Virus record (IMG/VR): IMGVR_UViG_3300025699_000004
Reading direction: 5' to 3' (one strand)
DNA from: a virus
Length of the DNA: 64,000 nt
Each line of letters begins with the position of its first letter. The first letter of the stretch is position 1. Below, piece by piece: positions 14,050 through 59,731 of the stretch. The notes below the pieces were generated by a model. That model did not search any database. It was not told the DNA's origin and was given only the letters and a program-made list of their open reading frames with translations. The position numbers and the translations under genes were made by a program.

Positions 14050-14140
14050 CACTTCTTTCGTTTAGTTTGTTCTGTTCGGATCTGCACGGACAAAGACACT
14101 TCCAACCCTCTTGGAAGTTTACTTTTTAACTTCCATCCGT

Positions 14141-14248
14141 AGATCTGCCTCAGATCCGTAGATCCGTAGATCTGCCTCAGATCCGTAGATCCGTAGATCT
14201 GCCTCAGATCCGTAGATCCGTAGATCTGCCTCAGATCCGTAGATCCGT
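14141..14248. repeat. Perfect tandem repeat, 4 x 27 bp (AGATCTGCCTC AGATCCGT AGATCCGT)
   Basis: Directly readable; 12 GATC sites in 108 bp. Confidence 0.95.
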
Positions 14249-14381
14249 AGATGCTCACGTAGATCTGTTTAGTTTGTTTAGTCTCTCTCTTGTCTCTTGT
14301 CTCTCTTGTTATTTTTACCTATTTACTTTCTTTCCTATTTTGTTCTATTTAGGTTCTATTTCGTTTCTTTCTATTTAGCCC

Positions 14382-14406
14382 AAAAAAAAGCCCCCTTTCG
14401 GGGGCT
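14382..14406 (-). terminator. Intrinsic terminator downstream of DUF932 gene
   Basis: AGCCCCC-GAAA-GGGGGCT then T-run. Confidence 0.85.
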
Positions 14407-14464
14407 TAGTCTTATGGCATTTGGCAACTCATAAAGATTGCCAAGGCTAGTATTCCAAGCAAGA

Positions 14465-37217: not shown

Positions 37218-37403
37218 TTATTTTTTTATTCTCCATGATGATGAACTTAATGAAATTTTAATTTGATCGAAATGGAGATAAACATTTTCAAGTTTGTTTA
37301 ATTTACTCTTGTTCTCATTTAAATACTCTAACATTTTTAATTTAGATGTAAAGACTATAAATCTTTCGTTTCCATTTTTCTTATGAGCAATATGATATTT
37401 CAC
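37218..37403 (-). CDS. Hypothetical protein
   Basis: Tiles operon. Confidence 0.6.
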   Translation of the reverse strand: MKYHIAHKKNGNERFIVFTSKLKMLEYLNENKSKLNKLENVYLHFDQIKISLSSSSWRIKK

Positions 37404-37750
37404 AAAGCATTTCCATGCTCATCATCGCAATAAACTCTATCAGTCATTACAGGGTAATGTCCACATTCAATGTTAGTTGGAGAAAAACTTGATGCAAGCC
37501 TTTGTTGGATGTCTAGTAAAACATTATCTGCATAAACTAAATCTTGCATATCTTTCTCTTCGATATTAGCACCTTCCTCAAGATCGTCAAGTATATTTTC
37601 GCAAGAACTAATAATTCCTTTTAATGTAGTTTCTTCTAGCGAATCATCTTCTTTATTTATTTCTTTCATTTTTTTATCTATTGCATATTTAATACTACTC
37701 TCATCACTAGCACATAGTAATGAATATTTATCTATAAAGCATCGAATCAT
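37400..37750 (-). CDS. Hypothetical protein
   Basis: Tiles operon. Confidence 0.7.
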   Translation of the reverse strand: MIRCFIDKYSLLCASDESSIKYAIDKKMKEINKEDDSLEETTLKGIISSCENILDDLEEGANIEEKDMQDLVYADNVLLDIQQRLASSFSPTNIECGHYPVMTDRVYCDDEHGNAL

Positions 37751-38412
37751 GCTACCATTAATTCTTCTAATTGATCGTAATCAAATTCACCTTTTTTTGC
37801 GGGAACTATAACTTCATATAGAAACATTCTGATTGCTTTGCATATATCAAGATACTCATCCCAATCATTCATACTTAACATATTTCCTTCACCTTGTCCA
37901 CCATACGCCATGCGATAACCTTCTTCAAGAGGAGCAGGTTTTGAATTAGGGTCTTTTACCCATTGTTGAGTTTTTGAGCAGTAATGATGACTACGAGGAT
38001 TGTGCATACTATTTATATAAGTAAGAATATTGACGCGACCTAATTGGTTTCCACAACTATCGACATTCATTTCTAATCTCGCATCAATGAAGTCAACATT
38101 AGCACCTACGTAATCCTTCTTCATATCTTTAAGTTGAACGTGAACTGCTCTATATTTGTCTTGAGCAAGATGTGTATGAGGTGTACCATTATAGGTTTTT
38201 CGAGAAAGAATTGTGCAATCTAACTTCTCGCAAGTCTTGAAGTCACGATCACATTTACTTTTATAACTAAGAATATTATCTTCGGGCATAACTTTCTTAA
38301 CTAATCTATTACTCTTGAATATGATTGATTCGGGACTCCAACGATTCCATCTAATTGGATAATGACCTATACCTTTATGCTCTACTTTTACATCTGTGAA
38401 ATAATTTTTCAT
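37747..38412 (-). CDS. Hypothetical protein
   Basis: Tiles operon. Confidence 0.75.
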   Translation of the reverse strand: MKNYFTDVKVEHKGIGHYPIRWNRWSPESIIFKSNRLVKKVMPEDNILSYKSKCDRDFKTCEKLDCTILSRKTYNGTPHTHLAQDKYRAVHVQLKDMKKDYVGANVDFIDARLEMNVDSCGNQLGRVNILTYINSMHNPRSHHYCSKTQQWVKDPNSKPAPLEEGYRMAYGGQGEGNMLSMNDWDEYLDICKAIRMFLYEVIVPAKKGEFDYDQLEELMVA

Positions 38413-51541: not shown

Positions 51542-52615
51542 TCAAGAAGATTCTTCCTTCATCTTTGATGTCTTTTTCAAAATCCCTTTTTTATATAAAT
51601 GAGTTTCCTTAGCTCTTATAGAACTAATAGGCTTTCTTAATTTTTTAGCTATTTCTTTACCTGGAACACCTTTATTTGAAAGATTTATTAATAATTCTTC
51701 ATCTTTTTTAGAGAAGGGGAATTTTTGTTTTGGAGGCTTTTTCTTCAAAAGAAATCCTAGCTTTAACCAACGGGATTGATTGATTATTTGATACTCTGTG
51801 AATTTTCCTTTAAAAAATTTTTTACTAACATATTCAGCCGTAAAAGATAAAGGGTTGCTTATTAATAACAAAGTTAATTCGGTTTTATCTTTGTTATTAA
51901 AATAAATGTGACCACTTGGTTCAAAGAAATCATTTATAGCTTTATTGCCTTCCGATATTTTTTCAAAAAAATCATCATTTAATATTTTACTATTCATGCC
52001 ATCTTTTAAAGAACCTATAGATTTAGTTTTTGCGACTATTTTTTGAAAACTTAAATCAATAGCTTGTCTTGTAACCCCAAATTCTTTAGCTATATTTTTT
52101 TGCTTTTCTCCTGACTGAAGCTTTAAGAAAATTTTTAACTCGTTTTTAGTTAATTTAGACTTTATTTCGTTTAAAATATATTCATACTTATTTCCAATAT
52201 TTATACTTTCAACACTAGGTTCAACCCCGCTTTGCTCAAGAGCTAAATCTAAAGAAGTCTTCTCTCCGTCCTCAGTAAAGTATACATTATCAGACCTCTT
52301 TGAAACCCATTTTCCAGATTTTTTTTCCGAGCAAGTTAAGCTTGAATATTTCCATTTAATTAAATTCCTACAATAAATAAAAGCAGTATGCTTAAACGAA
52401 TCATATTTAAAATCTTTACCTATATAGTTAATTATTTTCTCTTTGCTTTTGATTAAATACAAATTAACTTCAGATAATAATTCGTCAGAATCTAAAGGGT
52501 GAGACTTGCCTTTATATTTTCCTATTATCTTCACCAAGTCTCCTTGGAAAGACTCTAAGAAATTATCAAATAATTTTAATCTTTTGCGGTCTACTATATT
52601 TTGTTGGATATTCAT
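51542..52615 (-). CDS. Divergent sigma70-like factor with extra C-terminal HTH
   Basis: Region-2-like DELLSEVNLYL...FKHTAFIYCRN; region-4 KLT..E..IF...KQKNIAKEFGVTRQAI. Confidence 0.65.
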   Translation of the reverse strand: MNIQQNIVDRKRLKLFDNFLESFQGDLVKIIGKYKGKSHPLDSDELLSEVNLYLIKSKEKIINYIGKDFKYDSFKHTAFIYCRNLIKWKYSSLTCSEKKSGKWVSKRSDNVYFTEDGEKTSLDLALEQSGVEPSVESINIGNKYEYILNEIKSKLTKNELKIFLKLQSGEKQKNIAKEFGVTRQAIDLSFQKIVAKTKSIGSLKDGMNSKILNDDFFEKISEGNKAINDFFEPSGHIYFNNKDKTELTLLLISNPLSFTAEYVSKKFFKGKFTEYQIINQSRWLKLGFLLKKKPPKQKFPFSKKDEELLINLSNKGVPGKEIAKKLRKPISSIRAKETHLYKKGILKKTSKMKEESS

Positions 52616-53609
52616 TAGTCCAATTTATTTTATAAAGTTTTTTGCTTGTTACTAGAATTTTACAAAGATGAGAATAGGTTAAACCTAAATATTTAGCTGT
52701 TTTTATTCTGCTATTATTAAACTTAGGAAGGGCGTTTTTTATTTTTGGTATTATTTCATTATAAAAAAAATCTCTTTTTTTTGCTTTTGTTTTTTTTGAA
52801 TTTTCAATTTTTCTTTTTTCTTGCTCTTTAGTTAAATTAGAAAAAGGTATATGCCCATTACTCATTAATTTTTTCATTGTTTTTTTTTGGATTGAAGATC
52901 TGATTTTTGTAGGCAAAATAGGAGGTTTTTGCTTTGGGAAAGGATATTCTTTATTCCAATCGACAGTGTATATTCTTTTCATATATGAATAAAATAAATT
53001 TCTAGAAATACCCATCTCTTTTGAAGCTTTTAGTCTGACATTATTATTATTTGTTAAAGCCTCTATCATTTTCTCCTTTACCGCATTCATCTCTTCCTTG
53101 TCCCATTTGACCCAATGACCTTTGTAGATCATACCTTTCCTATCCTCTAAGGCTCTCGTCTTTCCTTTTCTGTTTATATGTGACCAATTTTCTTTACCCG
53201 ATTTGAAGCCTATGGATAAAATATGATCAAGATCAGTTTTATTAAATCGATTTGTGTACCCTTCTTTTCTGATTATTTCTTTTTTAAATAGAACATTGTT
53301 ATAATTAGGGAATGAAGCTTTTTTTATTTGCTCCCAATTCTCAAAACTTAACTTTCTATTTGCCTGGATTTTATAATTACCATGAAACATGAATCCCTGA
53401 ATAGCTTTTACCTTTATAAGGGGATCGTCTTTCTTTAATTTCTTAATTAATGTTTTTTTTGCAGAATCATACGATTTCGCTCTTATAAAAGTCTTAAAAT
53501 CTTTTTCGACACCATCAGAATATTTTTCTGTATAATTTATATTCCAATATTGATCGAAAGGGAAAGTTTTTGATCGGAATTTTTTTTGACAACTACTTCT
53601 TTTTTTCAT
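52566..53609 (-). CDS. Unknown domain X plus two Fis-like HTH repeats
   Basis: DQYWNI...FIRAKSYD.A...MFH...W..I...FPN.NN.LFK; EALT.NNNV..KASKEMGISR and NAL.KFNNS..KTAKYLGLT. Confidence 0.65.
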   Translation of the reverse strand: MKKRSSCQKKFRSKTFPFDQYWNINYTEKYSDGVEKDFKTFIRAKSYDSAKKTLIKKLKKDDPLIKVKAIQGFMFHGNYKIQANRKLSFENWEQIKKASFPNYNNVLFKKEIIRKEGYTNRFNKTDLDHILSIGFKSGKENWSHINRKGKTRALEDRKGMIYKGHWVKWDKEEMNAVKEKMIEALTNNNNVRLKASKEMGISRNLFYSYMKRIYTVDWNKEYPFPKQKPPILPTKIRSSIQKKTMKKLMSNGHIPFSNLTKEQEKRKIENSKKTKAKKRDFFYNEIIPKIKNALPKFNNSRIKTAKYLGLTYSHLCKILVTSKKLYKINWTNEYPTKYSRPQKIKII

Positions 53610-54087
53610 TTAATAAAATTTTAAGTTTTCTAATCATTTCTGATTTTGATCTAGACACTAAATTGACAGGAGTTTTTGTTTTTTGGGAAATTTCTTTAAC
53701 ATTATAACCTTTATTTAAATAATAATATATATTATATTGCTTTTCGGACAAATAAGCTTTCACCCTTTTATCTAAAGCCTTTTTTTCATCCGAAACTAAA
53801 TCGTGAAAAGGGTCTGATATAATAGGAAAATCTTGATGTTCGAAATTAATATATCTTCTACCCCATCTCTTTTTGTTTTGTAAGTATTTTTTTATTTGAA
53901 AACGACAAATTGTAATAGCCCAATTTAAAAGTTTTTTTGAGCGATCAAATTCAAGCCTTTTTTTTATTAAAATTAAATTTACATTTTGAATAATATCTTT
54001 AGCATCATTATTGCAATAAACCACACTATTTACATATTTTTCAATATTTGGTTGTATTATTTCTATCTGTTGATCAGAAAACGTCAT
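53593..54087 (-). CDS. ECF-type sigma70 factor
   Basis: DAKDIIQNVNL.L.KK..EFD.SK.LLNWA.TI.RFQ; region-4 HTH GYNVKEISQ. Confidence 0.75.
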   Translation of the reverse strand: MTFSDQQIEIIQPNIEKYVNSVVYCNNDAKDIIQNVNLILIKKRLEFDRSKKLLNWAITICRFQIKKYLQNKKRWGRRYINFEHQDFPIISDPFHDLVSDEKKALDKRVKAYLSEKQYNIYYYLNKGYNVKEISQKTKTPVNLVSRSKSEMIRKLKILLNEKKK

Positions 54088-54091
54088 AGAA

Positions 54092-54946
54092 TTAGTATTT
54101 CGTCTTTAGCCATCCCTTATACTTCTTTTTGTTAAAAATCCCCATAACTTGATGTTGGTGATACCTGCCCTTAAAAAGATCGCAGATTTCTTGAGCTGTA
54201 AAATGCTTGGGTTTTTTAGAAACCATTTTGAATATTTTTTCAAAATCTTTTTGTCTTTGGCTATTAATTTTTCCTAAATCTTTTTCCGAGGAAAATAAAT
54301 CACTCATAGCTTTCATTCCTATTTCTATGTTTTCCCAAGAAGAATCTTCATTTAATTTTATTTTTATCCTAGCTCTAAGTTTATTTTTTAAATTTATGAA
54401 GCTTGCCGATATTGCTTGATGGGTTACGCCCATTTGATTAGATATATTAAATTGATTCTCGCCTTTCATTAAGGATTCTAATATTTTGACCTCTATTTCT
54501 GTAAACCAATTAGTGTAGTCCTTTATTATTTCAAAATAATATTCAATTTTTTGCTTGGAGTCAAAATCCAAATCGGCGTTTTCCCCGCAAGTTTCGCAAG
54601 CGATCTCAAAAGAAGTTTTTGAACCTTCTTCCGTATGGATTACAGAGTTGTTGCGCCGAGAAACATACTTAGAGCCTAGTTCTCGATAGTGATCCCATGA
54701 GGGGGCTTTTCTGGAATAAATACATACGATATATCTAAAACTCTCAAAAGAAAATTCATTAAACCCTTTTTCCGAATCTCTAAAAGAGATAATTGAGTCC
54801 ATCTTTTTCATCAAGGTTAAATTTAAATTGCTAGCTATTTCCTCTACAGACAATACATTAAATGCTTTTCTGCCTTTGGAAACTAAACGGTGTAAATCAT
54901 CTTGAAATTCCGATAGATATTTTAAAAATTTTTCTTGATCAGTCAT
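54092..54946 (-). CDS. Divergent sigma70-like factor (paralog of 51542)
   Basis: Shares SK.VS.R....TE.G.KTS and HTH GE.Q.NI...GVT.QAI with 51542 protein. Confidence 0.65.
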   Translation of the reverse strand: MTDQEKFLKYLSEFQDDLHRLVSKGRKAFNVLSVEEIASNLNLTLMKKMDSIISFRDSEKGFNEFSFESFRYIVCIYSRKAPSWDHYRELGSKYVSRRNNSVIHTEEGSKTSFEIACETCGENADLDFDSKQKIEYYFEIIKDYTNWFTEIEVKILESLMKGENQFNISNQMGVTHQAISASFINLKNKLRARIKIKLNEDSSWENIEIGMKAMSDLFSSEKDLGKINSQRQKDFEKIFKMVSKKPKHFTAQEICDLFKGRYHQHQVMGIFNKKKYKGWLKTKY

Positions 54947-54950
54947 TTTT

Positions 54951-55376
54951 TTAAACCTCTTCTTTTATTTTTTCTGAGACAAGGAATTTGAATAAAAAAT
55001 TATTTTCATTGGGGAACGCACAATTTCTAATATCTTCCCAATCTTTAATAGTTATTAACTTTGATTTTGTAGTTCCGCCCTTTTTTACAAATTGATAATT
55101 TTTATGAAACATGTGACCCTTGAAGTTTTTGAAAGAAGTATTAACTTTATCTTTTGATAGTTTTTTCTTTAATATAGATATGGCATAGTCAAAAGACCTA
55201 GCTTTCACGATTGTTATATATTCTTTTTCCCAAGAAAAATGATCGCATTCCGTAAAATAAATTTTCCAAAACTGATCAATGGAGAATTTTTTATTTTTAA
55301 AAGAATTCTGTTTTAATTTATTATTCATCATCGAAATTACTGTCAACTTCCTGTTTGAAATTTGGGTTGTTTTCAT
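54951..55376 (-). CDS. Stand-alone unknown domain X protein
   Basis: DQFWKI...IVKARSFD.A...MFH...DW..I...FPNENN.LFK. Confidence 0.7.
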   Translation of the reverse strand: MKTTQISNRKLTVISMMNNKLKQNSFKNKKFSIDQFWKIYFTECDHFSWEKEYITIVKARSFDYAISILKKKLSKDKVNTSFKNFKGHMFHKNYQFVKKGGTTKSKLITIKDWEDIRNCAFPNENNFLFKFLVSEKIKEEV

Positions 55377-55557
55377 ACTCTCCTACAGACCTTCCTATTT
55401 TAAATGCATATTTATCTATAAAAAATACACAAATAGATATGCACCAAGGAGTTAATTCTGTTAATTCAAAGTTTGTAAATAATAGCACGAAAATTATCAA
55501 ATAAGGACAATATTTATTTGCGATATAATCAATAGCTGCGTAATCTGTTTCTTTCAT
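55321..55557 (-). CDS. Small membrane protein
   Basis: Two short hydrophobic segments. Confidence 0.6.
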   Translation of the reverse strand: MKETDYAAIDYIANKYCPYLIIFVLLFTNFELTELTPWCISICVFFIDKYAFKIGRSVGEYENNPNFKQEVDSNFDDE

Positions 55558-55887: not shown

Positions 55888-56055
55888 ATGGAAAAGGTTG
55901 AAATAAAAAATAAAATTACGAGCGATTATATTATAGAGTTGTACGAAAAAGCAAAAACCATCAAAGATCCCACGAAAAAAAGCAAGGCGATGAAAAATAT
56001 TAAAATTATGTCCGAGCATTTAGGCGAATATTTAGTTAGGAAAATTAAAAAATAA
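55888..56055 (+). CDS. Small basic protein (start moved to MEKVE)
   Basis: GTGTAT-N9-ATG at 55873-55890. Confidence 0.6.
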   Translation: MEKVEIKNKITSDYIIELYEKAKTIKDPTKKSKAMKNIKIMSEHLGEYLVRKIKK

Positions 56056-56413
56056 AATCATCATCTTTCTCTTCTTCTCGTTTTTCTTCGTATGGAGGAC
56101 TCCAATAAACATCTTTAAATAAAACTAGGTCAATTTTTGTTGGAGCTATCCAATCATTAATTAAAGCTTCGAATTCTTGATTCGCATTGTATCTCCACTT
56201 GTCGGCATCTCTGCTACGATCATTTTGATCATCATCATATTGCAAATGATCGAAATCATAGACAGGAACTTCTATGCCCACTGGCTCTCCGAAAGGCACT
56301 GGTTCATTTGTGCTTTCGTAAAAGAATTCATTGTCTTCGCCAGCATAAACAACTTCTTTTGAACTTAGCGAAGCGAACTTATCATCATCTAATATTAGTT
56401 TTATTTTATTCAT
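56045..56413 (-). CDS. Acidic hypothetical protein (start moved to MNKIK)
   Basis: TTGACT-17-TATAAT-7-ATG. Confidence 0.7.
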   Translation of the reverse strand: MNKIKLILDDDKFASLSSKEVVYAGEDNEFFYESTNEPVPFGEPVGIEVPVYDFDHLQYDDDQNDRSRDADKWRYNANQEFEALINDWIAPTKIDLVLFKDVYWSPPYEEKREEEKDDDFIF

Positions 56414-56432
56414 AATTTGAATTATAGCATAT

Positions 56433-56654
56433 TTATTTTTTAGAGTCAAGCTTTTTTTGAAAATATATTCTAACTATAGCTTTTCTAACTACTGCAAAAC
56501 TAAAAAGTATAGAAGAACTCCAAAGTGTAATTTGTAAAGCATTGAAATTTAAATTTAAGCAGAGTGCGATAACGATGTAATTAAGCGGAACCATTATTAC
56601 AGTACCTAGTATAGTGTCTACAGTAGCCTCTTTAAATGCGTCAAGTTTTTTCAC
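56433..56654 (-). CDS. Small two-TM membrane protein
   Basis: Hydrophobic pattern; coupled to MTase. Confidence 0.7.
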   Translation of the reverse strand: MKKLDAFKEATVDTILGTVIMVPLNYIVIALCLNLNFNALQITLWSSSILFSFAVVRKAIVRIYFQKKLDSKK

Positions 56655-57717: not shown

Positions 57718-57746
57718 ATTATAGCAAAATAAGAATTACATGTCAA
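57718..57746 (-). promoter_or_regulatory. Consensus sigma70 promoter of MTase, -35 embedded in HNH gene end
   Basis: TTGACA-17-TATAAT-8-ATG. Confidence 0.8.
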
Positions 57747-58323
57747 GACTATTTATCGTCTTAATGTATTTTTTCCATTTCAAAACTTGCTCGCATAACT
57801 CGTGAAATTCTTTTATGCTTAAATCATTCTTTGCATAGTTAGCTGATCGAGTACAGATCCCTAAGTTGGACAAGTCATTAGTCCCCCCTTTTGAGGTTGG
57901 GATGATATGATCAAATTGGTATGTTTCAGGCTCATTTAAGTTTATAGGAGTTCCCGTTAAATAGCAAACAGGATTATCTCCGAATTTTTCCAAAACATCT
58001 TTTACGGTGAAGTTTTCAGAAATATTATTTACATAAGCATGAGTTCTTCTGTCTCTTTTTCTTTTTTTAAAAGTCTTTATTTTTCCTCTAAATGTGTTTC
58101 TCGTAATTCTACTTTTGAAAGCACTAACTTTTCTACTCAATTTATGCCCGTTAGTTTTGTTTCTTTTTTTTACTCTTTCTTTTTCTGTCTTGTTTTCTCC
58201 ACAATGATAAGATATCGTTGACTTACTACATCCTAACTCCTCTTGTATTTCGGAGTAAGTTTTACCTTGGCTCCGTAATTTTAATATATCTTCTTTTCTC
58301 TTTGTGTTATTTTTTTTTCGCAC
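57736..58323 (-). CDS. HNH endonuclease with N-terminal HTH
   Basis: CYLTG...DHIIP.SKGG.N...NL.IC...AN.AK. Confidence 0.85.
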   Translation of the reverse strand: MRKKNNTKRKEDILKLRSQGKTYSEIQEELGCSKSTISYHCGENKTEKERVKKRNKTNGHKLSRKVSAFKSRITRNTFRGKIKTFKKRKRDRRTHAYVNNISENFTVKDVLEKFGDNPVCYLTGTPINLNEPETYQFDHIIPTSKGGTNDLSNLGICTRSANYAKNDLSIKEFHELCEQVLKWKKYIKTINSLDM

Positions 58324-58807
58324 AATTATTTATAATGTCATAAGCCGATTCCTTACTTAACCATTTCTTCGCCACAACCTTTTTGCCTTCCAAGTCTTTA
58401 TAGTGAGCAAAAAAGTTTTTATAAATTTTCAAAAGAGTTTCTGGGGCATCTTTTAAGCTAGAGAAAAGACCTATATGATTAAGGGGTATTGCTAATATTT
58501 TGTAATCTTTTTCCCCTTCGTCTTCCATATCCAAAACTCCGAGAACTTTAGATTCCACCACAGTCCCTCTTTCTATCGGGTTTTGGTTATATAATATTAC
58601 ATCTAAAGCGTCTCCATCTTCAGCTAATGTGTTGGGGATAAACCCGTAATTTGCTGGGTAAACCATTGCCGTGTTTAAACTGCGATCATATTCAAAGTAG
58701 CCCTTTGTGTTGTACTCGTACTTTTGAGCGCACCCTTTGGGTATCTCAACAACAGAATTGATTATCATCGGGGATTTTTTATGAATGGGTAATCTATACA
58801 AGTTCAC
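58307..58807 (-). CDS. ppa: Family I inorganic pyrophosphatase
   Basis: VVEIPKG..KYE, YP.NYGFIP.TL.EDGDALDV, DEGEKD.KI, FF.HYK.LE; GTGTAT-N9-GTG upstream. Confidence 0.92.
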   Translation of the reverse strand: MNLYRLPIHKKSPMIINSVVEIPKGCAQKYEYNTKGYFEYDRSLNTAMVYPANYGFIPNTLAEDGDALDVILYNQNPIERGTVVESKVLGVLDMEDEGEKDYKILAIPLNHIGLFSSLKDAPETLLKIYKNFFAHYKDLEGKKVVAKKWLSKESAYDIINNCAKKK

Positions 58808-59221: not shown

Positions 59222-59698
59222 TTAAATTTTCGAACCTATCACGTTAGGCTTTACCCCTTTTTTGAATTTACCATCTGAAGATCTAGGGGTGTCAAACTTC
59301 CCAGACTCATCCTTTTTTGTCATTTGTAATTTTAAATTTTTGTTCCAAGGCGAGAATCCTTTTTTGAAAGTCCCATTTTTATTTCTTTTAGAATAATTTT
59401 TGATTCCGAATTCATCATTAACTTTGAATTTAAAAAGCTTTCCTTTGTGGTTTGGGTAAGAAAGTTTTAATAAAATATCCCATTCTTTATCTGAGAATCT
59501 TTTGCCCTTGTAATTACTTTTATACAATTCATAAATTCTTATATTTTTTAATTCGTAAATAGGGAATTCCTTATTTATTTTTATCAACAGGGTCTCTTTT
59601 GCTCTGTTTTTTTCGTTGGATTTTATTAAAGTTTTGTATTTTTCCCAACGAAATACCTTTAATTTAAAATAGATTATAAAAATTGAATCGCTTTCCAT
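59222..59698 (-). CDS. Divergent domain X protein with C-terminal R...G.F repeats
   Basis: KYKTLIKS...A...EW..L...YPN....LFK; RNKNGTFKKGFSPWNK, DESGKF, RSSDGKFKKG. Confidence 0.55.
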   Translation of the reverse strand: MESDSIFIIYFKLKVFRWEKYKTLIKSNEKNRAKETLLIKINKEFPIYELKNIRIYELYKSNYKGKRFSDKEWDILLKLSYPNHKGKLFKFKVNDEFGIKNYSKRNKNGTFKKGFSPWNKNLKLQMTKKDESGKFDTPRSSDGKFKKGVKPNVIGSKI

Positions 59699-59731
59699 AT
59701 ATAATATATACGAAGCCAATCTAATTAAAGC

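What the first reader, a model, noticed from the sequence alone, without database searches (positions are those of the whole stretch)
51542..55376. Three-sigma operon interleaved with a repeated unknown domain: X - sigmaA' - ECF - X+2xHTH - sigmaB'
Seen, in transcription order: stand-alone domain X (54951-55376), divergent sigma (54092-54946), ECF sigma (53593-54087), X fused to two Fis-like HTHs (52566-53609), and a paralogous divergent sigma with extra HTH (51542-52615). The two divergent sigmas share motifs (SK.VS.R...TE.G.KTS, GVT.QAI, I..G.KA..D.F). The X copies share DQ.W.I, (K/R)A(R/K)S.D.A, MFH and W..I...FPN.NN.LFK. Genes overlap or abut. Established: phage sigma cascades (SPO1 gp28, gp33-34; T4 gp55-gp33) use dedicated co-factors. 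Inference: a duplicated X-sigma pair in which X is an unrecognised sigma partner (co-activator or anti-sigma), forming a multi-stage transcription switch that likely reads the GTGTAW promoters.
Basis: partly seen in the sequence, partly recalled or inferred. Interest (0 to 1): 0.78.

Follow-up and report, generated by a model that had tools for sequence, protein, structure and literature searches.

The report
Phage sigma genes paired with X-domain
A group of large uncultured marine phages carries an early operon of sigma factors. Each sigma of a phage-only subfamily is always preceded by a gene for a previously undescribed small domain, often fused to DNA-binding motifs, which is most likely a dedicated sigma partner that helps redirect the host RNA polymerase.

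Summary
Five abutting or overlapping minus-strand genes encode X1, sigA, an ECF-type sigma, X2 fused to two Fis-type HTHs, and sigB. X1 and X2 are 38% identical (E 4e-18). sigA and sigB are 31% identical (E 3e-29).

sigA and sigB are real but divergent sigma70-family proteins. They match the phage's own ECF sigma by profile comparison (96%, E 2e-9). The sigA model has sigma2 and sigma4 folds (Z 8-9).

X has no match in Pfam, PHROGs, NCBIfam or PDB sequences, and only noise-level fold matches. It forms 77 clusters among 1.84 billion proteins, all from marine viral or metagenome DNA.

All 42 distinct sigA/B-type genes I found have an X gene as their immediate upstream neighbour. X1/sigA and X2/sigB form mirrored clades.

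The ECF-type sigma is accessory and moves position. Relatives also carry a fourth sigma elsewhere, so which sigma reads GTGTA promoters is open. A positionally conserved sigma70-type promoter upstream suggests the operon is early.

X as a sigma partner is well supported by context. Its mechanism, probably a DNA-tethered co-activator, is inferred. This scan noted the same module earlier on another phage genome (e1-5747575, e1-5747566).

The parts
56421..56449 (-). Sigma70-type promoter (TTGACT-17-TATAAT with TG), the probable early promoter of the operon that contains the module
   Evidence: 11/12 consensus match. A TTGACA-N17/18-TG.TA..AT promoter sits at the same position, upstream of the homologous first gene, in L001, L002, L003, L005, L006, L008 and L010, with TTGACA at the gene start in L012; spacers differ. 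It belongs to the same promoter-repeat family as the one before rIIA (D3).
56045..56413 (-). Conserved small gene of unknown function, first gene after the promoter
   Evidence: Homologues lie in the same position in L002, L003, L005 and L006 (40-81% identity). No Pfam match.
55321..55557 (-). Conserved 78-aa protein with two hydrophobic segments, always directly upstream of X1
   Evidence: 47-69% identical homologues lie immediately before X1 in all nine two-pair loci. No PHROG match. In L001, L008, L010 and L012 it follows the ECF-type sigma.
54951..55376 (-). X1: stand-alone X domain (probable start at 55328-55331)
   Evidence: Model pLDDT 77, alpha/beta. No family hit.
54092..54946 (-). 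sigA: divergent sigma70-family protein. Sigma2 is about 54677-54946, sigma4 about 54356-54559, and the conserved post-sigma4 helix about 54293-54343.
   Evidence: Fold matches: sigma2 Z 8.5-8.9 (SigR, RpoE), sigma4 Z 9.3 (SigH). The listed Foldseek hits are almost all sigma factors. hhalign vs the phage ECF family gives 96%, E 2e-9.
53593..54087 (-). ECF-type (group 4) sigma factor, an accessory member of the cluster
   Evidence: Sigma70_r2 4e-8 and TIGR02937 1.3e-13, both above cut-off. PDB profile hits to ECF sigmas at 1.9e-10. Absent from complete relative G001.
52566..53609 (-). X2HTH: X domain (53250-53609) fused to two Fis-type HTH modules (about 52569-53237)
   Evidence: 29 of 38 long X-family proteins carry HTH_8.
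51542..52615 (-). sigB: paralogue of sigA. Sigma2-sigma4 is about 52028-52570, and an extra C-terminal HTH is about 51566-51772.
   Evidence: TIGR02937 7.9e-10 over residues 16-196 (38.6 bits, cut-off 42.9). phrog_351 sigma 1.5e-9 and phrog_323 3e-9. Compared with sigA.
59222..59719 (-). X3: third, divergent X copy, not next to a sigma
   Evidence: X-profile E 1e-16. 33% identical to X2 over 73 aa, E 6e-5. It forms its own clade (99% SH-aLRT). Complete relatives have exactly three X copies.
57736..58323 (-). HTH + HNH-nuclease-like protein. It is the gene that directly follows X3 in relatives; here it is separated from X3 by two inserted genes.
   Evidence: phrog_6050 HNH 1.3e-34, with an N-terminal HTH. 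69-70% identical copies abut X3 in L002, L003, L005 and L006.

Best explanation
The region is a conserved early transcription-takeover operon of a clade of uncultured marine phages of about 160-200 kb.

sigA and sigB belong to a phage-only subfamily of sigma70-family (ECF-like, sigma2 + sigma4) factors. This subfamily has a characteristic conserved linker motif and an extra conserved helix right after sigma4. Each such sigma gene is tightly linked to an upstream gene carrying X, which abuts or overlaps it in most loci.

X is a roughly 100-aa alpha/beta domain with no recognisable relatives and no conserved catalytic residues. The ancestral form of the partner is X fused to one to three Fis-type HTHs.

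My reading is that X is the sigma-docking domain of a dedicated partner protein. X2HTH would bind DNA near the promoters used by sigB-holoenzyme and contact sigB, probably at the post-sigma4 helix. It would thus act as a DNA-tethered co-activator or specificity subunit. X1 would be an HTH-less derivative that acts on sigA without DNA binding.

The operon is made early by host sigma70 RNA polymerase. Its products then redirect host core polymerase to later phage promoter classes.

Shown: gene content, homology, strict pairing, co-duplication, the upstream promoter, and no phage RNA polymerase detected in complete relatives. Inferred: the physical X-sigma contact, its positive sign, and the target promoters.
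For: Pairing:
- 42 of 42 distinct sigA/B-type genes have an X gene immediately upstream. 39 lie within 120 nt, two follow a gap of about 212 nt, and one follows a fragmentary X ORF. They come from about 40 viral, metagenome and assembly loci.
- The ECF-type sigma and the distal fourth sigma have no X partner, and both end right after sigma4.
- The post-sigma4 helix is clearly conserved in 23 of the 25 sigA/B aligned, and weak in the two most divergent, L014 and L016.

Co-duplication:
- The X1 clade (96% SH-aLRT) and the sigA clade (99%) contain the same nine loci.
- Phages with a single pair carry an X protein of 225-409 aa plus one sigma. The flanking X genes were annotated with HTH_8 in all of these except L018.

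DNA-binding fusions: HTH_8 is present in 29 of 38 long family members.

No enzyme signature: the only invariant X residues are a Pro-Asn pair, and the near-invariant ones are mostly hydrophobic.

Sigma identity.

Early expression: a sigma70-type promoter is positionally conserved in all nine two-pair loci, with differing spacers.

Host polymerase use: no RNAP beta or beta' domains in two relatives that CheckV rates 100% complete.
Against: - No direct or computed evidence of an X-sigma contact was obtained here.
- X3 is paired not with a sigma but with an HTH-HNH protein, so X is not strictly a sigma-only partner.
- Tight linkage and co-duplication would also arise for an anti-sigma, or for a co-regulated but independent transcription factor.
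- The best fold match of X (eL20/LX ribosomal protein, Z about 7) is at noise level and says nothing about function.
- No promoter or operator motif could be tied to the module. A TAAATAGAA motif cluster in the window is not conserved in relative G001.
Confidence: 0.55

Rival explanations
1. X is an anti-sigma factor of a new fold. It holds its cognate sigma inactive after early co-expression until a later signal releases it, which would set the timing of middle and late transcription. The HTH-bearing form would park the inactive sigma on DNA.
For: Sigma and anti-sigma genes are classically adjacent and co-transcribed, and the pairing here is strict. X1 has no DNA-binding part. A sigma made early but needed later requires a brake. 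A sigma-family-specific helix after sigma4 could be the handle.
Against: The ancestral and commonest form carries one to three HTHs, which known anti-sigmas do not need. X is alpha/beta, whereas class I anti-sigma domains are helical. No anti-sigma chain appeared among the 50 listed fold matches; this is inconclusive. In bacteria the anti-sigma gene usually lies downstream of the sigma gene, whereas here X is upstream.
Confidence: 0.2
2. X-HTH proteins are independent transcription factors, for example repressors of host or early phage promoters, with X as an oligomerisation or ligand domain. They lie next to the sigmas only because all are early regulatory genes.
For: Fis-type HTHs alone suffice for DNA binding. 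X3 is not next to a sigma. Some X1 copies (L002, L008) carry an unrelated N-terminal extension.
Against: 42 of 42 adjacency across sequences only 25-45% identical, with mostly abutting or overlapping genes and mirrored duplication, is more than shared timing would predict. Other genes of the operon, including the ECF sigma itself, move or drop out while the X-sigma junction never breaks.
Confidence: 0.17
3. X is a degenerate nuclease domain of homing-endonuclease type (GIY-YIG-like). X-HTH would then be an I-TevI-like selfish gene sitting beside the sigmas.
For: The architecture of an N-terminal 100-aa beta-beta-alpha-beta-alpha domain plus C-terminal HTHs recalls I-TevI. X3 is followed by an HNH-like gene and, read by eye and not tested, carries a GF.PWNK-like motif common in homing endonucleases.
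Against: hhalign of the X profile against T4 I-TevI, SegA, SegG and EndoII gives probability 0.3%. Pfam GIY-YIG gives no hit at E<=1 on the X proteins or at E<=10 in two whole relatives. No GIY-YIG chain appears among the 50 listed fold matches. No Arg, Glu or Tyr is invariant. The position is strictly syntenic rather than sporadic.
Confidence: 0.03

Closest known systems
T4 MotA with AsiA (sigma appropriation at middle promoters)
   Same: An early phage protein with an N-terminal sigma-contacting domain and a C-terminal DNA-binding domain retargets the polymerase holoenzyme, together with a small partner that has no DNA binding. X2HTH would parallel MotA and X1 would parallel AsiA in logic.
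   Different: MotA and AsiA act on the host sigma70, whereas here the phage supplies its own sigma for each partner. X is alpha/beta and has no detectable similarity to known proteins. Neither MotA nor AsiA appeared among the listed fold matches. No sequence test against MotA or AsiA was run.
T4 gp55-gp33 and SPO1 gp34-gp33 (phage sigma plus dedicated co-factor)
   Same: A phage-encoded divergent sigma needs a small phage-encoded partner. This is part of a temporal cascade that starts from host-transcribed early genes.
   Different: There is no homology: sigA/B profile vs T4 gp55 gives hhalign 0.1%, and X profile vs T4 gp33 gives 0.05%. From established knowledge, gp33 bridges to the sliding clamp and has no DNA-binding fusion, and gp55 lacks sigma4, whereas sigA and sigB keep sigma2 and sigma4.
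Bacterial ECF (group 4) sigma factors with cognate anti-sigma factors or C-terminal extensions
   Same: Two-domain sigma2-sigma4 architecture. The regulator is encoded next to the sigma, and some groups carry regulatory C-terminal extensions.
   Different: sigA and sigB fall below curated ECF model cut-offs. They have a family-specific conserved linker and a post-sigma4 helix. The partner lies upstream, is soluble and alpha/beta, and is usually fused to HTHs.
Phages with three sigma genes (SPO1, SP10; Schwartz et al. 2022, PMC9429907)
   Same: Several sigma genes in one phage genome.
   Different: Those sigmas are homologues of Bacillus middle, late or sporulation sigmas and have no X-type partner. 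No cultured phage in the 50,697-record collection matches X, sigA, the ECF gene or X2HTH.

Membership tests
Sigma70 family, group 4 / ECF-type (ORF 53593-54087) | Sigma2 domain (regions 2.1-2.4) recognised by curated models | tested here: met
   Pfam Sigma70_r2 33.4 bits vs cut-off 24. TIGR02937 51 bits vs 42.9, covering residues 5-157. PDB ECF sigmas at 1.9e-10.
Sigma70 family, group 4 / ECF-type (ORF 53593-54087) | Sigma4 domain present, and no sigma1 or sigma3 | tested here: met
   The full-length match to the 165-position TIGR02937 model includes sigma4. The protein is only 164 aa.
Sigma70 family (sigA 54092-54946, sigB 51542-52615) | Sigma2-like N-terminal helical domain | tested here: met
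   sigA model residues 1-90 align to SigR sigma2 (Z 8.5, rmsd 2.7, 73 aa), RpoE (Z 8.9) and SigC (Z 7.8). hhalign against the phage's own ECF family gives 96%, E 2e-9, over 168 columns spanning sigma2 and sigma4. The sigA model has modest confidence (pLDDT 68).
Sigma70 family (sigA, sigB) | Sigma4 HTH domain | tested here: met
   Residues 129-197 align to SigH sigma4 (Z 9.3), SigF (8.8) and SigD4 (8.2). The PDB profile search finds LuxR/GerE-type HTHs at 3e-5.
Sigma70 family (sigA, sigB) | Score above curated family cut-offs | tested here: not met
   sigB scores TIGR02937 38.6 bits vs cut-off 42.9. sigA has no sigma model hit, and GerE scores 22.4 vs 23.5. They are therefore divergent members, recognised by profile-profile and fold comparison only.
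Sigma70 family (sigA, sigB) | Binds core RNA polymerase and directs promoter-specific initiation | not testable with these tools
   This needs biochemistry.
Fis-type HTH (Pfam HTH_8) DNA-binding module (X2HTH C-terminal part) | HTH_8 profile match above cut-off | tested here: met
   28.2 bits vs cut-off 22, with two stretches. 29 of 38 long X-family proteins match, best E 3.9e-16.
Class I anti-sigma domain (ASD) for X | Helical ASD fold, often with a zinc-binding HxxxCxxC motif | tested here: inconclusive
   The X model is alpha/beta (beta-beta-alpha-beta...alpha-beta). No conserved His/Cys motif. No ASD chain among the 50 listed fold matches, which does not exclude other anti-sigma types.
GIY-YIG nuclease for X | GIY and YIG strands with conserved Arg, Glu and Asn; profile similarity | tested here: not met
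   hhalign probability 0.3% against T4 GIY-YIG domains. No PF01541 hit. No invariant Arg, Glu or Tyr.
T4 gp33 / gp55 late transcription pair | Sequence-profile similarity to gp33 (for X) or gp55 (for sigA/B) | tested here: not met
   hhalign 0.05% and 0.1%.
Ribosomal protein eL20/LX fold for X | Fold match clearly above background | tested here: inconclusive
   Best Z 6.8-7.1, rmsd about 3, about 75 residues aligned, 4-14% identity. This is within the range the tool gives for chance arrangements.

The most novel reading that the evidence does not exclude
X-HTH plus its sigma form a two-protein promoter-recognition device. The phage sigma carries an appended docking helix after sigma4. The X domain of a DNA-binding partner clamps onto that helix, so upstream promoter specificity is supplied in trans by exchangeable HTH modules. 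The duplicated, HTH-less X1 then acts as a DNA-free modulator of the second sigma. This would be a new class of sigma co-factor and a new protein fold family for steering bacterial RNA polymerase.
Probability: 0.3. Interest if true: 0.8.

Novelty: new variant of a known kind. Interest (0 to 1): 0.62.

Why it matters
Phage sigma cascades with dedicated co-factors (T4, SPO1) are textbook models of how RNA polymerase is reprogrammed, but very few partner types are known.

Here a whole clade of abundant marine phages shows an unbroken genetic link between a private sigma subfamily and an undescribed domain. Earlier scan notes, untested here, suggest the hosts are SAR11-type. The two components are duplicated together, and the partner is repeatedly fused to DNA-binding modules.

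If the contact is real, it gives a new and compact way to couple a sigma to an upstream DNA site. It would also give a ready-made orthogonal sigma/partner pair for synthetic biology, and a handle on gene timing in phages that cannot yet be cultured.

Tried and rejected
- GIY-YIG or homing-endonuclease origin of X: rejected.
- Homology of X to T4 gp33, and of sigA/B to T4 gp55: none.
- Cultured relatives: none by blastn or tblastn for the whole region, X1, sigA, ECF, X2HTH or the relatives' fourth sigma.
- X in Pfam, PHROGs or NCBIfam: nothing. Weak sub-threshold hits (MRP-L27, SP_0191-like) are inconsistent between copies.
- X against PDB sequences: zero hits at E<=10.
- X fold against PDB and BFVD: no Foldseek hit at E<=0.001. 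Best VIA Z is about 7 to eL20/LX, with RNAP epsilon at Z 4.0 and T7 Gp2 at Z 3.4, all at noise level.
- ESM Atlas: no usable lead.
- X in 185,579 species genomes: only a spurious 20-aa match, which the X profile did not confirm.
- A third promoter or operator class tied to the module: the TAAATAGAA cluster in the window is not intergenic or enriched in relative G001, so it was dropped as a module target.
- sigB C-terminal HTH vs the X2HTH HTHs, and vs the HTH of the HNH protein: no pairwise similarity.
- The search for related loci with the sigma alignment failed because no stretch was conserved enough.
- Complex prediction of X with sigma could not be run.


Full report
**What is there.**
The window is part of a large, AT-rich (about 31% GC) uncultured phage. 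It carries rIIA/rIIB, a clamp loader, a prohead protease-like gene and three tRNAs. A protein identical to sigA is recorded on a 195-kb contig. No whole genome is held for the window.

- X1, 54951-55376
- sigA, 54092-54946
- an ECF-type sigma, 53593-54087
- X2HTH, 52566-53609
- sigB, 51542-52615

The genes are separated by 4-nt gaps or overlap by 17 and 50 nt. The two X copies are 38% identical (E 4e-18). The two divergent sigmas are 31% identical over 276 residues (E 3e-29).

**Are the 'divergent sigmas' sigmas?**
The ECF ORF is a straightforward group 4 sigma. It scores above cut-off for Sigma70_r2 and TIGR02937, and its family profile hits ECF sigmas in the PDB at 1.9e-10.

sigB matches TIGR02937 over residues 16-196 at 7.9e-10, which is just under the cut-off. 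A profile of the sigA/sigB family aligns to a profile of the phage's own ECF sigmas with 96% probability (E 2e-9) over 168 columns covering sigma2 and sigma4.

An AlphaFold model of sigA has modest confidence (pLDDT 68). Its Foldseek hit list consists almost entirely of sigma factors. In the exhaustive alignment, residues 1-90 match sigma2 domains (SigR Z 8.5, RpoE Z 8.9). Residues 129-197 match sigma4 domains (SigH Z 9.3, SigF Z 8.8).

I therefore accept sigA and sigB as divergent sigma70-family proteins. They have two family-specific features:
- a conserved linker motif, K.VS.R...TE.G.KTSF
- a conserved helix directly after sigma4, D(E/D)S(W/Y).K(I/V)..G..A...(L/F)F

Short sigA proteins of relatives end right after that helix. 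The ECF-type sigma, and the fourth sigma found in relatives, both lack it.

**What is X?**
X is a domain of about 100 residues.
- It has no match in Pfam, PHROGs or NCBIfam.
- It has no match to any PDB sequence, even at E 10.
- A profile search of 1.84 billion representative proteins found only 77 clusters. X lies at the N-terminus of the large majority of them, either alone or followed by further sequence.
- 29 of 38 long members carry Fis-type HTH_8 modules after X.
- The model (pLDDT 77) is alpha/beta: a beta hairpin, helix, strand, loop, helix, strand.
- Foldseek found nothing significant in the PDB or among viral models.
- The best exhaustive matches are ribosomal protein eL20/LX at Z about 7, which is the tool's stated noise level.
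- The only invariant residues are a Pro-Asn pair in the FPN.NN.LFK motif. The near-invariant ones are mostly hydrophobic, so an enzyme is unlikely.
- X is absent from 185,579 bacterial and archaeal species genomes. It is also absent from 50,697 phage records.
- All sources are viral contigs or metagenome assemblies; where sample names are informative (Tara) they are marine.

**Context is the strongest evidence.**
I collected about 40 loci from viral contigs, assemblies and metagenomes, then searched their ORFs with profiles of X, sigA/B and the ECF sigma.

Of 42 distinct sigA/B-type genes, all have an X gene as the immediate upstream neighbour. 39 lie within 120 nt. Two follow a gap of about 212 nt. 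One follows an X ORF cut by my length filter. The one odd locus, L045, has a truncated X2-type gene followed by an opposite-strand gene.

Nine distinct phages share the order 78-aa protein, X1, sigA, X2HTH, sigB. The X1 clade and the sigA clade contain exactly the same nine loci (96% and 99% SH-aLRT).

More distant phages have a single pair of an X protein (225-409 aa) plus one sigma (L016, L018-L021), or two tandem X-HTH genes plus one sigma (L014). The flanking X genes carry HTH_8 annotations in all of these except L018.

The ancestral unit is therefore X-HTH plus sigma. The window's lineage duplicated the pair, and X1 lost the HTHs. Some X1 copies instead gained an unrelated N-terminal extension.

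A third X copy lies at 59222-59719. Two relatives that CheckV rates 100% complete, G001 (180 kb) and G002 (163 kb), each have exactly three X copies. In relatives X3 is directly followed by a well-conserved HTH + HNH-like protein. In the window that protein (57736-58323) is separated from X3 by a 126-aa ORF and an inorganic pyrophosphatase.

The ECF-type sigma is not a fixed member of the module:
- It lies between sigA and X2HTH in the window, L003 and L006.
- It lies upstream of the 78-aa gene in L001, L008, L010 and L012.
- It is missing from G001.

G001 and G002 also carry a further sigma of 232-244 aa far from the module. In G001 its linker is Cys-rich. The phage group therefore has up to four sigmas.

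**Timing and polymerase.**
A near-consensus sigma70-type promoter (TTGACT-17-TATAAT with an extended TG) lies at 56449-56421. No predicted terminator separates it from sigB. A promoter of the same type occupies the same position in all eight two-pair relatives, while the spacer sequences differ.

TTGACA is the most enriched intergenic word in the window. It is strongly strand-biased, with 50 copies on the gene strand against 7 on the other. No RNA polymerase beta or beta' domains were found in G001 or G002. The single-subunit RNAP search returned nothing, but its control was uninformative.

The likely sequence of events is as follows. Host sigma70 holoenzyme transcribes the operon early. The phage sigmas then take over host core enzyme.

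**GTGTA promoters.**
GTGTA occurs 48 times in the window, and seven copies lie within 40 nt upstream of a start codon. In G001, 22 of its 95 copies fall in the 4.8% of the genome called intergenic, roughly a five-fold excess. G001 has no ECF-type sigma.

GTGTA, if it is a promoter, therefore does not depend on the ECF-type sigma. Nothing links it specifically to sigA or sigB rather than to the fourth sigma.

**Mechanism.**
Four observations point to a functional X-sigma unit rather than mere co-regulation:
- the X-sigma junction is never broken
- the pair was duplicated together
- the X-partnered sigmas share a private extra helix
- other operon members come and go

The ancestral partner carries DNA-binding modules and shows no catalytic signature. 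I therefore favour a DNA-tethered co-activator or specificity subunit (about 0.55) over an anti-sigma (about 0.2) or an independent regulator (about 0.17).

I could only confirm that the helix exists and tracks with X partnership. I could not test the contact itself.

**Comparison and novelty.**
In logic the module resembles T4 MotA/AsiA, and the gp55-gp33 and SPO1 gp34-gp33 pairs. There is no homology to gp33 or gp55. Unlike MotA and AsiA, the partner here serves a phage-made sigma.

Phages with three sigmas are already known (PMC9429907). What is new is the partner domain and its strict coupling to a private sigma subfamily. I file it as a new variant of a known kind.

Noticed in passing
window:59222-59719 (-) and 57736-58323 (-): A third X-domain gene (X3). 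In relatives it is directly followed by a 69-70% conserved HTH + HNH-nuclease-like protein. In the window the two are separated by a 126-aa ORF and an inorganic pyrophosphatase (58307-58807) that has a GTGTA motif 15 nt before its start.
   Followed up: partly
window:14343-19448 (-): TAAATAGAA occurs 11 times in the window against 3.7 expected. Nine copies are on the minus strand within 5 kb. By my reading they lie in long non-coding gaps, several as two or three direct copies right after terminator hairpins. The motif is not conserved as an intergenic motif in relative G001.
   Followed up: partly
window:13822-14465: A gap of about 640 nt with no convincing gene. It holds five 27-nt tandem repeats (14108-14269) and three TAAATAGAA copies. 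It also holds two near-identical TTGACA promoters (14049, 13889) with an AGATCTAGATCT palindrome in the spacer. It looks like an operator hub or an iteron-type origin.
   Followed up: no
window: e.g. 38423, 37142, 32862, 20481, 19461, 16724 (-): AAGCGAAA recurs 4-20 nt before start codons and immediately after some TTGACA boxes. It is a possible leader or translation signal rather than a Shine-Dalgarno sequence.
   Followed up: no
window:55321-55557 (-): A 78-aa protein with two hydrophobic segments is conserved directly upstream of X1 in all nine two-pair loci. In four relatives it directly follows the ECF-type sigma, the position typical of a membrane anti-sigma, although its soluble parts are very short.
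   Followed up: no
L022:818-1516 (G001 37317-38015) and G002 about 14307-14447: A fourth sigma-like gene of 232-244 aa lies far from the module in complete relatives; the G001 copy, the one examined, has a Cys-rich linker between sigma2 and sigma4. It has no match in cultured phages or PHROGs. It is a candidate reader of GTGTA promoters.
   Followed up: partly
L002:5767-6384, L008:4767-5378: Some X1 orthologues carry an N-terminal extension of about 70 aa with an HGDKYSY...CKKC pattern that Pfam does not recognise.
   Followed up: no
L002:8091-9590, L003:7569-9182, L005:7168-8817, L006:7745-9358: sigB orthologues vary from 325 to 549 aa through one to three repeated C-terminal HTH modules. This parallels the variable HTH number in the X-HTH partners.
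   Followed up: no
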